Assembly: GCF_009914755.1 (NCBI RefSeq)
Contig: NC_060925.1
DNA: 64,000 bases
Strand: one strand, 5' to 3'
Source of the DNA: the human T2T-CHM13v2.0 reference genome, Homo sapiens
Shown: one piece after another, positions 45,920 to 50,923 of the stretch
Layout: the number at the start of each line of letters is the position of its first letter
Position numbering within the stretch: the first letter of the stretch is position 1
The notes under the pieces: model-generated
The model's input: only the letters and a program-made list of their open reading frames with translations
What the model was told of the DNA's origin: nothing
Database searches by the model: none
Position numbers and translations under genes: made by a program

Positions 45920-48323
45920 AGGACCACACTGCTACCGCATACCTGACTGCCTCATTCTGTGTCCCTCCTGTTCGATATAGTCTGGTTTTGCAAACTGAGG
46001 CTTAAGCCTCGGCAGCCAAGAGCAAGCCCTTGTTCCTGTTCTGATGAGGATGTACTGAATTATTTTGTATTCAGTTTCCTACGATGACCTTCTCTAATTA
46101 CACAAAAGAAAACATAATGAATTTACATATCTTTGGGTCAATTTATGAAAAACCATTCTTTTCAGTAATACAAGTCCTTTAAGACCTGTTGGAAAATGGT
46201 ACAGACGTGAGCATTTTCCTTGCTCTGCTCTAGGTCATATGGTAAAGGAGAAGAGAAGTAACTTTTCTTGGGTACCCACTAAGCACCTACTCTAGTGCTA
46301 GGTGCTTTCAGGCCATTTTCTAGTTTGATCTTTAGGACAGTCCAGTGATGAGAGCACAGTGTATGGTCATTTGGTCAGAGTGGGAGTAAAAGACCATCGC
46401 TCTCGTATAACATGTTCTCTGTGGAGGATACGTCCGTCAGTCATAATGACTCATAGAGATGTCAAGTTAATTGATTCGTAAAAGTTTGCTAAATCAATTT
46501 TTTTTCTTTTTTTTTGAGACAGGGTCTCACTCTGTCGCCCAGTCTGGAGTGCAGTGGCACGATCTTGGCTCATGGCAACCTCCACCTCCTGCATTCAAGT
46601 GATTCGCCTGCCTCAGCCTCCCGAGTAGCTGGGATTACAGGCGTGCACCACAACACCCATCTAATTTTTGTATTTTTAGTAGAGATGGGATTTTGCCATG
46701 TTGGCCAGGCTGGTCTCAAAACTCCTGACCTCAGGGTGATCTGCCTGCCTCGGCCTCCCAAAGTGCTGGGATTATGGGCATGAGCCACTGCGCCTGGCCG
46801 TAATTGTGCTTTTTTTTCCTTTTTTCTTTTTTTGAGATGGAGTTACACTCTTGTTGCCTGGGCTGGGGTGCAATGGCACAGTCTCGGCTCACTGCAACCT
46901 CCACCTCCTGGGTTCCAGCAATTCTCCTGCCTCAGCCTCCCGAGTAGCTGGGATTACAGGCATGCGCCACCATGCCTAGCTAATTTTCGTATTATTAGTA
47001 GAAACAAGGTTTCACCATGTCAGCCAGGCTGGTCTCAAACTCCTGACCTCAGATGATCCACCCGCCTTGGCCTCCCAAAGTGCTGGGATTACAGATGTGA
47101 GCCACCACGCTCAGCCAAATTGTACTTTCAGTAAAGTACTTTACTGTTTACAAAGAACTTCCATATACATTTTTTTGGTCCTGGTCTCTGTCTTTCATTT
47201 TGGGAGCATGGATGTAACTGGCCTTTCATCAATGGTTCAGTAGTGTTGTTTTTTAAAGCCTACAACAGAACCATCTCCTATGAATTGACTATCACCTGTC
47301 TAAATGCCCTGTTTACAGCATGTTGTACCTGCAAGAGCAGGATATTTAAAGTACTTTATAATTGATAATTGCCATTATCAATATGCTCACCTCTTTACCA
47401 TATTCCAACAGGTCTTAAAGGACTTGTATTATTTTTTACCGAAGAGAGTGGTTTTTCGTAAGTTTACCCGAAGATACATACATTTATTATGTTGGTTTTT
47501 TGTTTTTTTTTGTTTTTGAGACAGAGTCGCACTCTGTTGCCCGGGCTGGAATGCAGTGTCGCAATCTCAGCTCACTGCAGCCTCCGCCTTCCCGGTTCAA
47601 GCGATTCTCCTCCGTCAACCTCCCGAGTAGCTGAGATCAGGCACACGCCACCATGCCCTGCTAATTTTTGTATTTTTAGTAGAGGCGGGGTTTCACCACG
47701 TTGGCCAGGCTGGTCTCAAACTCTTGACCTCAGGTGATCCACCTGCCTCGGCCTCCCAAAGTGCTGGGATTACAAGCATGAACCACCGCGCTGGGCTGGG
47801 TTTTGTTTTTTGTTTTTGTTTTTTTTTTTCATATTAGAGGAGGCCCAGACAGGTGCGGTGGCTCATGCCTGTGATCCCAGCACTTTAGGAGGCCGAGGTG
47901 GGAGGATCACCTGAGGTCAGGAGTTCGAGACCAGCCTGGCCAACATGGTGAAACCCCTTCTCTACAAAAATTATGAAAATTAGCCCGGCGTGGTGGCACT
48001 TGCCTATAATCCCAGCTACTTGGGAGGCTGAGGTAGGAGAATCACTTGACCTCAGGAGGCGGAGGTTGCAGTAAGCCAAGATCGCACTACTGCACTCCAG
48101 CCTGGGCGGCAGAGTGAGACTTTGTCTTAAAAATAATAATAATAATAATTAGAGGAGACCATCGTAGGAAACTGAAGACAAAATAATTCAGTATGTCCCC
48201 ATCAGAACAGGAACAGGGTCTTGTTGGTTGCAGAGACTTCAGCCTCATTTTGCAAAACCAGGCTATATATAATTGGAGGGGCACAGAATGAGGCAGTCAG
48301 GTATGCATTAGCAGTGAGGTCCT
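45920..48323. repeat. Non-Alu inverted duplication: 45920-46214 versus 47383-47495 plus 48146-48323
   Basis: Reverse-complement alignment by eye, roughly 85% identical, including an exact 29-mer (46166-46194 / 47403-47431). Confidence 0.92.
46497..48148. mobile_element. Alus 46497-46799(-), 46810-47117(-), 47495-47798(-), 47843-48148(+)
   Basis: Full dimers; TSDs aattgt(g/a)cttt and attagaggag. Confidence 0.92.
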
Positions 48324-50923
48324 CCCCAGCTTGTGAATACCTGGGTAGGCTTACCTTATCTCCCAACCTCCCAGTGCTCGGCACTGGTTCCTACTGAACA
48401 ATCGGTAGAAGCAATTTTGTCAGCTTGTCTGCCTAGAAGTAGCCACATGCTTGTTTGCTGAGAATAATTAGGGTCCCTGCTTATTCCAGTACTTATGCTT
48501 TTCCAGCAGGCACACAGATTGCTCACAGATCTTATGGAAAGGCTGCCAGTGTTACTTCCTCAGTGTTGGGGAGGTAGAGCCCACTAAGCCTGAGCCCCCT
48601 GTTCCCTGTCTGCACACTGTCATACAAAGTCACAGAATAAGTTAAACACATACACACATGCACACAAACACACACAGAAAACATGACTCATATGTGACAT
48701 CCCTCAACACACTTTTGAAGGACTTTGCCCTCTGAACCTATATGGTAAAATAGATCTTTTTTATTTTCCAGGATAAATAAAGAATGATTTTGCTCTGACC
48801 TATTCTTCTGCAGCTTGGGAAGTAGATCATACAAATCTTTGAGAGTTCAACATCCATTTGCAGAATGGCTCCATGGAAATTGGCCATTTAAACTATTCTT
48901 CACGTTAAAGACATTAAGCTCTAACCCAAGAAAACCACCCACAGCCAAGAACAACAAAAATGACATAAACCACGTCACCTAACCCAGCAGTTAGGTATTT
49001 CTTGAATATCTGATACTTAAAACTTAACTCCCCTCTACACCTGTGTCCTCTCCATACAGTAGGCTAACATCAGGCAGCCAGTGGCATGGGCGCCCTGGCT
49101 GGCTTCATGGGGCACACTAACCTTGCACATCATTTTCTTTATCTTCTCCTCTCTCCTCCTTGTCCACTTTTCTTCTGTCCCAATTCGCTTTTTCTTTTCT
49201 TACTTCATTAACTCTTTTTCCTTTCCTTCTAATACCTCAGGAAGCACGCTTAGGCATTACCTTGTCCTCAGCTGCATCTTCATTTACCCTTCAGGTGAAA
49301 TGTGGTTGAGCAAGGAAGGCAACTCGTTCCCTACAAGTCTGAGAATGGGTGGAGCAGGCAAGAGAAACGGTTAAATAGACCCCAGAGAAGGGCTGCAGTT
49401 AATGATAATAGGATTTCTATCTGTCCTTCCACTGTACCAAGTGACTTCCACACAGTGGCATTTTCCAAGGGTGAGTGCAGAGGGAGTAGCTGCTCAGCTT
49501 GGATGGGTATGGGCAGGAGAGGTTACTGAGGCTGCAGGCTTAGCAAGGTGAGTATGCATGGATCCCACGAAGTCAATGCAAAAGCAATTTGAAAATCCCT
49601 GCTTTTCAAATAGGTGTAAGGGTTTCTGTCCATGACAAGGCTGTTCTACTTCAGTCTTTTAACCATGTATCCACACAGTCCCAGAGATGGTCACTAGTGT
49701 CTTCCTCACCTTTAACTTCCTCCTTGGAAATAATTTTCACATGCTACGTTCTTGACCTACCAGGACAAATTCTATGAATTCTTCACGTATGTGTCCTGGG
49801 AAGGAATAGCCAAAAGCTTTGACAAGAATAACTAAGTCTGGGCTGGGTGTGATGGCTCATGCCTGTAATCCCAACACTTTGGGAGGCCAAGGCAGGTGGA
49901 TCACGAGGTCAGGAGTTCGAGACCATCCTGGCCAAGATGGTGAAACCCCATCTCTACTAAAAAAAAAAAAAAAAAAAAAAAATACAAAAATTAGCCTGGC
50001 ATGGCAGCGGCCACCTGTAATCCCAGCTATTCAGGAGGCTGAGGCAGGATAATTGGTCGAACCCAGGAGGCGAAGGTTGCAGTGAGCCAAGATTTGCGCC
50101 ACTGTGCTCTAGCCTGGCCAACAGAGCAAAACTCCGTCTCAAAAAAAAAAAAAAAAAAAAAATTAAGTCTGAAGTACCCAGGACTTGTTGAAATGCTGCC
50201 TGATCATTTCTCTCAGAAAACTAACAGAAAACCACATTATTTTGAATATTTGGAAATGTCAATGTCACTCAGAGTGCACAACATTCGGGATTAACTTTTT
50301 TTTTTTTTTTTTTGGAGACAGAGTTTTGCTCTTGTTGCCCAGGCTGGAGTGTAATGGCGTGATCTTGGCTCACTGCAACCTCTGCCTCCAGGGTTCAAGC
50401 GATTCTCCTGCTTCAGCCTCCAAAGTAGTTGGAATTACAGGCGTATACCACCATGCCTGGCTAATTTTGTATTTTTAGTAGAGACAAGACTTCTCCATAT
50501 TGGTCAGGCTGGTCTTGAACTCCCGACCTCAGGTGATCCGCCCACCTCCGCCTCCCAAAGTGCTGGGATTACAGGCGTGAGCCACTGCGCCCGACCCGGG
50601 ATTAACTTTACAACCAAACTTGATCCAACTTCTAATTCTGTAAGAATACCATTTCTTTACATGACAGATGGAATAATTGGCCAATAGGTCTAAAGTCTGT
50701 CCTTTATTGTGCAATAAGAGCCTCGCAAAGGTGGAATGCAACCTGAGATCTTAAGGTCCTGGTCTCTGTCTTTCATTTTTGGGAGCACAGATGTAACTGG
50801 CCTTTCATCAATGGTTTAGTAGTGTTCGTTATTAAATTCTATAACAGAACCACCTCCTATGAATTGACTGTCACATGTCTAAATGCCCTGTTTATAGCAT
50901 GTTTTACCTGAGAGAGCAGGATA
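47177..50923 (+). repeat. Non-Alu direct duplication: 47177-47344 versus 50755-50923
   Basis: About 168 bp; 16 substitutions and 1 indel by manual alignment (~90%). Confidence 0.95.
49840..50597. mobile_element. Inverted AluS pair, 49840-50162(+) and 50296-50597(-)
   Basis: TSDs aa(c/t)taagtctg and gggattaacttt; the first has an A24 middle linker. Confidence 0.93.

What the first reader, a model, noticed from the sequence alone, without database searches (positions are those of the whole stretch)
47129..50923. Mosaic segment: 168-bp direct duplication joined to the inverted arm through palindromes
Seen: 47177-47344 duplicates 50755-50923 (~90%) and lies only 38 nt before the inverted arm that starts at 47383. 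That linker consists almost entirely of a 12-bp palindrome TAAAGTACTTTA (47347-47358) and a 9-bp-stem hairpin ATTGATAAT-tgcc-ATTATCAAT (47361-47382). The same 12-mer is the core of a perfect 18-bp palindrome CAGTAAAGTACTTTACTG (47129-47146) on the other side of the duplicate. Inference: 47177-48323 was built by serial template switches with snap-back synthesis from two donors, one ~1 kb upstream (inverted) and one ~3.5 kb downstream (direct). This would be a fixed, ancient complex rearrangement.
Basis: partly seen in the sequence, partly recalled or inferred. Interest (0 to 1): 0.72.

Follow-up and report, generated by a model that had tools for sequence, protein, structure and literature searches.

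The report
Ancient two-donor DNA repair patch
Inside an intron of the human NR5A2 gene sits a roughly 500-base patch copied from two nearby stretches, one forwards and one backwards, likely the scar of a single DNA break repaired in an early primate; such repair-made duplications are a known and probably neutral class.

Summary
47177-47344 matches 50755-50923 (152/168). The inverted arm 47383-48323 matches 45920-46214 (232/265) once two later Alus are removed. The 38-nt linker holds the stated palindrome and hairpin. Genome searches found no other copy of either duplicated piece.

This points to an empty site with one GGTCCT and makes the 47-kb copies the likely derived ones, without orthologues. 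The two divergences do not differ (p=0.44), which fits one event.

The 18-bp palindrome lies in an old MIR-like SINE and looks like a quasi-palindrome made perfect. Whether that SINE continues across the empty site is only suggestive (p 0.055-0.15).

This is a two-donor repair-mediated duplication (Pace et al. 2009), a described class; the locus is not in their table. Most likely each broken end primed on its own donor; serial switching by one end is the close rival. Orthologues could not be checked and no function was shown. A clean new member of a known kind.

The parts
45920..46214 (+). Donor A (295 nt), copied in reverse orientation; begins with AGGACC (GGTCCT on the minus strand) at 45920-45925
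46495..47128 (-). Two tandem Alus between donor A and the target site; the second is flanked by an 11-nt near-identical direct repeat (46802-46812 and 47118-47128); likely later than or unrelated to the event
   Evidence: order of events is inferred
47129..47146 (.). Perfect 18-bp palindrome, single in the genome; likely a quasi-palindrome of the SINE made perfect by template switching
47131..47174 (+). Fragment of an old high-copy interspersed repeat (MIR-like; the name is recalled) forming the left flank
   Evidence: E 5.7e-9
47177..47182 (+). GGTCCT: left copy of the duplicated target site and microhomology with donor B
47177..47344 (+). B', direct copy of donor B (168 nt)
47345..47382 (.). 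38-nt filler: 12-bp palindrome 47347-47358 identical to 47132-47143, then fold-back 47361-47382 (10 of 11 pairs if read with no loop)
47383..47491 (-). A', left part: inverted copy of the distal part of donor A
47492..48147 (.). Two head-to-head Alus inserted into A' after the duplication; the second has a 10-nt exact target-site duplication (47833-47842 and 48148-48157)
48146..48323 (-). A', right part: inverted copy of the proximal part of donor A
48318..48323 (+). GGTCCT: right copy of the duplicated target site and microhomology with donor A
50755..50923 (+). Donor B (169 nt); begins with GGTCCT at 50755-50760

Best explanation
47177-48323 is an insertion of about 500 nt (plus two later Alus), bounded by GGTCCT at both ends and made of a forward copy of 50755-50923 and a reverse copy of 45920-46214, and it is likely the product of one germline double-strand break at that 6-mer in which each broken end primed on its own nearby copy of the word. 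Shown: the two copies, the 6-mer at all four junctions, the filler, and the Alus lying inside the copy. Inferred: (1) a staggered break left GGTCCT on both ends; (2) the left end primed at 50755 and copied about 170 nt; (3) the right end primed at 45920 and copied about 295 nt; (4) the two new ends shared no long homology, so a short fold-back filler, partly copied from the palindrome beside the break, joined them through 2-3 nt overlaps; (5) Alus inserted afterwards. Age is inferred as early simian, shortly before the AluS-type wave. The result is probably neutral intronic DNA. The core claim (one repair insertion here, two local donors) is about 0.8; this two-ended route is about 0.5.
For: Homology to both donors stops exactly at GGTCCT on the outer ends. 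Two random ends share a 6-mer this way in 148 of 400,000 draws, or 3,097 of 400,000 with 2 nt of slack. The donors are the nearest GGTCCT on each strand, 1.8 kb and 0.63 kb away without Alus. Divergences are 16/168 and 33/265, Fisher p=0.44. The filler holds an unusual hairpin and a local 12-mer. The Alu target-site duplication is drawn from A' sequence that the donor has once. Pace 2009 (PMC2671141) describes this two-ended model, 20 two-donor chimeras, microhomology 2-9 nt, filler 1-68 nt and target duplications of 4-21 nt.
Against: No orthologue could be examined, so the empty site is reconstructed, not seen. Continuation of the SINE across the empty site was not significant in any of seven comparisons: 303/2000 and 260/2000; 729/5000, 488/5000 and 276/5000; 191/1500 and 102/1500. 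The Alus inside A' are 5.5% and 7.4% from their majority sequence, slightly above half the non-CpG divergence of the duplicates (4.8%), though the intervals overlap. The right end would have to invade duplex DNA with only 6 nt of homology, whereas the serial route needs only exposed single strands. Being the nearest 6-mer adds little, as the window has only 23 such sites.
Confidence: 0.5

Rival explanations
1. One free 3' end did all the copying in series (SD-MMEJ-like on a resected break, or FoSTeS/MMBIR at a stalled fork). It primed at donor B on GGTCCT, made the filler by snap-back, folded back onto donor A at 46214 and copied it until its end again read GGTCCT and could pair with the original site.
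For: Every template would be an exposed single strand: the downstream donor is copied forward and the upstream donor in reverse. The filler shows fold-back beside the left flank. Trans and snap-back priming are described in PMC5728401 (passages), and multiple switches on 2-5 nt microhomology in PMC7407515 (passages).
Against: It needs a 295-nt tract to run on to a full 6-nt terminal match with no deletion, while most catalogued proximal junctions carry deletions (25 of 39 in Table 1 of PMC2671141). SD-MMEJ is described as limited, non-processive synthesis. The orientation is forced by where the two local 6-mers lie, so it does not discriminate.
Confidence: 0.3
2. Two separate duplications landed at the same place at different times.
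For: Point estimates differ (9.5% vs 12.5%), the site has attracted several insertions, and the counts are too small to exclude a gap of several million years.
Against: The difference is not significant (p=0.44; non-CpG p=0.61), and the matching 6-mers at the two outer ends would be a coincidence.
Confidence: 0.08
3. Reverse polarity or an inversion: 46215-47382 was inverted with staggered ends that duplicated A, or the 47-kb copies are the older ones.
For: Inverted duplicates flanking a segment are a signature of staggered-break inversions (own knowledge). No outgroup was seen.
Against: It leaves the GGTCCT at 47177 and the filler unexplained. The right flank scores above the null median against the SINE profile, while B' and the donor-A flank score below it (not significant).
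Confidence: 0.06

Closest known systems
Repair-mediated duplications (RDs), two-donor chimeric type (Pace, Sen, Batzer, Feschotte 2009, PMC2671141)
   Same: Short (up to 619 nt) single-copy insertion, donors within 5 kb, microhomology, filler, target-site duplication, intronic; divergence in the range of the 'All primates' rows seen in Table S1 part 1.
   Different: Both donors are local and lie on opposite sides in opposite orientation (only 5 of their 20 chimeras had both donors near), one 6-mer serves both outer junctions, and the filler is a fold-back. Not listed in their Table S1.
SD-MMEJ / polymerase-theta templated insertions (PMC5728401, PMC7407515; passages read)
   Same: Filler with a fold-back repeat and a short local copy; trans and snap-back geometry.
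   Different: The two main tracts (168 and about 295 nt, up to 1.8 kb away) are long for synthesis described there as limited or small.
FoSTeS / MMBIR (as summarised in PMC7407515)
   Same: Several template changes on 2-6 nt microhomology, mixed orientation.
   Different: Very small scale, no flanking copy-number change seen, and return to the same 6-mer.
Short-range template switch, quasi-palindrome to palindrome conversion (Walker et al. 2021, PMC7954356; passages read)
   Same: Fits the 18-bp palindrome: 43 family copies pair at most 6 of 9 positions, this one 9 of 9.
   Different: Median tract there is 12 nt (maximum 128); it explains the palindrome, not the insertion.

Membership tests
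Repair-mediated duplication (Pace 2009) | Inserted sequence of 50 nt or more found at only one other place in the genome | tested here: met
   only the local partner for each piece; the tool's counts are lower bounds
Repair-mediated duplication (Pace 2009) | Donor on the same chromosome, more than 50 nt and less than 5 kb away | tested here: met
   About 1.0 kb (A) and 2.4 kb (B) from the insert ends; 0.34 and 1.8 kb without Alus
Repair-mediated duplication (Pace 2009) | Microhomology 2-9 nt, filler 1-68 nt and/or target duplication 4-21 nt | tested here: met
   6-nt microhomology and target duplication, 38-nt filler; read from the reconstructed site
Repair-mediated duplication (Pace 2009) | No poly(A/T) tail belonging to the insert | tested here: met
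   A T7 run at 47170-47176 lies outside the duplicated 6-mer and aligns with the SINE profile
Repair-mediated duplication (Pace 2009) | Acceptor interrupts an older transposon whose halves rejoin (their detection criterion) | tested here: inconclusive
   Left half clear (E 5.7e-9); right half p 0.055-0.15
Repair-mediated duplication (Pace 2009) | Empty orthologous site in an outgroup | not testable with these tools
   No vertebrate relatives are held
SD-MMEJ / TMEJ templated insertion | Insert forms a direct or inverted repeat with flanking DNA through short primer repeats | tested here: met
   Filler and both tracts
SD-MMEJ / TMEJ templated insertion | Short non-processive synthesis, dependent on polymerase theta | tested here: inconclusive
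   The filler fits; 168- and 295-nt tracts fit poorly; enzyme dependence cannot be tested on an ancient event
FoSTeS / MMBIR | Arises at a stalled or broken replication fork by serial switches of one strand | not testable with these tools
   The sequence is compatible but does not separate serial from two-ended routes
Interspersed repeat (for the 168-mer) | Many dispersed copies | tested here: not met
   2 matches in the genome
L1-mediated retrocopy or transduction | Poly(A) tail inside the target duplication, single RNA template | tested here: not met
   No tail inside the 6-mers; the two pieces come from opposite strands
MIR SINE (left flank) | Match to the curated MIR consensus | not testable with these tools
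   No repeat library is held. High copy number is shown (20 vs 2 control; 78 vs 0); the name MIR is recalled

The most novel reading that the evidence does not exclude
Both ends of one break carried the same short word and each captured the nearest copy of it, one forwards and one backwards. If this 'same word at four junctions' signature is common, it marks an uncatalogued set of two-ended local captures that can be oriented in time from one genome alone, and here it may have assembled a simian-specific regulatory element in NR5A2 from two older intronic pieces.
Probability: 0.12. Interest if true: 0.55.

Novelty: new member of a known kind. Interest (0 to 1): 0.22.

Why it matters
As it stands it is a clear fossil of germline break repair that keeps all its junction marks after tens of millions of years, from the period in which Pace et al. 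found the highest rate of such duplications. It adds one two-donor case that their pipeline did not list. It would matter more if the four-junction signature proved general, because counting orientations across many cases would separate two-ended invasion from serial switching, or if the patch had enhancer activity in NR5A2. Neither is shown.

Tried and rejected
1. The 168-mer or donor A as an interspersed repeat: rejected; only local partners were found.
2. Polarising the event by SINE continuity across the empty site: three methods, seven comparisons, none below p=0.05; the direction is consistent.
3. Tracing the rest of the filler to local templates: the best further matches are 7-8 nt, equal to the median for random 38-mers, so not claimed.
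4. The 18-bp palindrome as a family feature: rejected; 0 of 43 copies exceed 6 of 9 pairs and the 18-mer is single in the genome.
5. Retrotransposition: rejected (no tail inside the target duplication; mixed strands).
6. Forkhead-like 7-mers (motif recalled) occur in B, B' and the left flank, but the window has 114 of them, so they are not evidence of function.
7. Literature on this locus: NR5A2 + intron 5 + duplication gave 3 papers, seen as listings only and none evidently on this site; two searches gave none.
8. Two papers sought by id were not held. Earlier scan findings were not available.

Full report
Observation. After masking Alus, a self-comparison of the whole window leaves three strong local matches: 47177-47348 with 50755-50927 (direct), and 45920-46095 and 46113-46217 with 48323-48151 and 47491-47380 (inverted). 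Global alignment gives 152 of 168 identical columns for the direct pair and 232 of 265 for the inverted pair; 47477-47491 next to the Alu tail was left out. Searches of the own genome with the 169-mer, with 45700-46490 and with 50600-51240 returned only the sequence itself and its local partner; the tool states that its counts are lower bounds. By the hub's annotation the region is in the intron after exon 5 of NR5A2, with no RefSeq functional element.

The junction word. Homology to donor B begins at GGTCCT (47177 and 50755), and homology to donor A ends at GGTCCT (48318-48323, and 45920-45925 on the minus strand); outside these points the flanks do not match. The insert is therefore bounded by a 6-nt direct repeat that is also the microhomology with each donor. 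Random ends did this in 148 of 400,000 draws, or 3,097 of 400,000 with 2 nt of slack on each side. The simplest reading (inference) is an empty site with a single GGTCCT between 47176 and 48324. The two donors are the nearest copies of the word on each strand among 13 plus-strand and 10 minus-strand sites in the window. Without Alus they start 1,807 and 633 nt from the site. With so few sites, nearness describes the choice available and is not separate evidence.

The filler. The 38 nt overlap B' by about 2 nt and A' by 2-3 nt with one mismatch. The 12-mer occurs only here and at 47132; 66 of 3,000 random 38-mers had a local match that long. A stem of 9 or more occurred in 101 of 46,824 Alu-free 38-mers, and only five such hairpins in the window lie outside one AT microsatellite. 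Read with no loop, the hairpin pairs at 10 of 11 positions. Other matches of 7-8 nt are at chance level and are not claimed.

The left flank. A 26-nt pattern from 47138-47163 matched 20 genomic places against 2 for the control, and the equivalent from one hit matched 78 against 0. I built a profile from 43 loci: the 19 non-self hits and 24 new ones among the 30 loci returned of those 78. It collected 87 hits in these loci and matches 47131-47174 at E 5.7e-9. From recall this family is MIR; no repeat library was available to confirm it. At the 18 positions of the palindrome, the 43 copies pair at most 6 of 9 positions. The window differs from their majority at 5 positions, and all five serve the perfect pairing; the 18-mer is single in the genome. 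That fits quasi-palindrome conversion as described in PMC7954356 (passages). The copied 12-mer includes changed positions, so the core was likely already perfect when the filler was made. Whether it helped cause the break is unknown.

Does the SINE continue across the empty site? The profile match lengthens from model positions 8-51 to 8-77 on the reconstructed allele, but 303 of 2,000 random and 260 of 2,000 shuffled continuations scored as well. Pairwise tests gave 729, 488 and 276 of 5,000, and anchored profile scores gave 191 and 102 of 1,500. B' and the donor-A flank scored below the null median in the anchored tests. This is consistent with the polarity but does not prove it.

One event, and when. 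The divergences do not differ (Fisher p=0.44; non-CpG p=0.61). Pooled divergence is 49 of 433 (11.3%, interval 8.5-14.7%), or 40 of 416 outside CpG (9.6%, 7.0-12.9%). Two Alus sit inside A'; the second has a 10-nt exact target duplication taken from sequence that the donor has once, so they came later. They are 16 of 215 and 12 of 217 non-CpG positions from the majority of 65 copies (median 7.0%), which places them in the main, AluS-like class (label recalled). Their per-lineage divergence is slightly above half that of the duplicates, with overlapping intervals, so the event is likely only a little older than these Alus, or the donors evolved slowly. PMC2671141 dates the AluSx wave at 30-42 million years. 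An early simian origin is my inference.

Mechanism. Two routes share the core claim. In the two-ended route, each end of a staggered break carries the 6-mer and primes on its own donor, and the two new ends are joined by filler. This is the right-hand path of Figure 1 in Pace et al. (legend read) and explains both outer junctions by one rule. In the serial route, the left end copies B in trans, snaps back to make the filler, copies A in reverse and closes when its end again reads the 6-mer. This needs only single-stranded templates but requires a long tract to end on a full terminal match with no deletion. I weigh them 0.5 and 0.3. The T run just left of the site resembles an L1 endonuclease target (recalled), and Pace et al. 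suggest L1 as a source of such breaks; this is speculation for this site.

Comparison with what is known. Pace et al. 2009 (PMC2671141; I read parts 1-6 of 8, part 1 of 15 of Table S1 and two searches in that table) report 824 proximal repair-mediated duplications (median 147 nt, maximum 619 nt, within 5 kb). They list 20 two-donor chimeras, 5 with both donors near, and microhomology with target duplication and filler in 2 of 39 inspected proximal junctions. The present case meets each feature I could test, except that their detection criterion of a rejoined transposon is inconclusive. To see whether the locus is listed, I fetched the 10 kb before the window and found an insert of about 185 nt inside an Alu with an upstream donor about 1.8 kb away, which fits their row at hg18 chr1:198,241,792. 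That puts the present site near hg18 198,293,900; a search of Table S1 for NR5A2 and for coordinates beginning 19829 found no chromosome 1 row. Their two supplementary figures were not opened. PMC5728401 and PMC7407515 were read as passages only, and PMC5110952 (templated sequence insertions from distant sites) as a search listing only. Searches for this locus in print found nothing specific; most subscription papers are outside that library.

Verdict. The feature is real and is a new member of a known kind. No function was shown and no orthologue could be examined. Interest 0.22.

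Noticed in passing
L047:3096-3258 and 5057-5240 (just before the window): A second repair-type duplication about 52 kb upstream: an insert of about 185 nt splits an Alu and is an inverted copy of a donor 1.8 kb upstream. It fits a row of Pace 2009 Table S1, which has no orientation column.
   Followed up: partly
window 47492-48147: Two Alus head to head with only about 55 nt between them, 84% complementary over 162 nt, inside the inverted arm; a likely double-stranded RNA site in the NR5A2 pre-mRNA.
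   Followed up: no
window 46495-47128: Two Alus in tandem on the minus strand that appear to share one target site, ending right at the SINE fragment with the 18-bp palindrome; a second small hairpin (7-bp stem) overlaps it at 47122-47139.
   Followed up: partly
window 8664-8718: 55-nt imperfect inverted repeat (84%) containing an 11-bp-stem hairpin at 8664-8690, next to an Alu.
   Followed up: no
window 42109-42159 and 42272-42322: Weak 51-nt direct repeat, 78% identical, 163 nt apart (E 5.5e-4).
   Followed up: no
window 61608-61625: Perfect 18-bp palindrome inside the RefSeq enhancer 61540-62113.
   Followed up: no
window 62260-62348: AT microsatellite interrupted by repeated short C-rich spacers, forming long hairpins.
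   Followed up: no
window 46305-46353: A further weak match to the same old SINE profile between donor A and the Alu pair (E 0.024).
   Followed up: no
window 3709-3808 and 43082-43179: The two annotated U6 pseudogenes match each other at 74% in opposite orientation.
   Followed up: no
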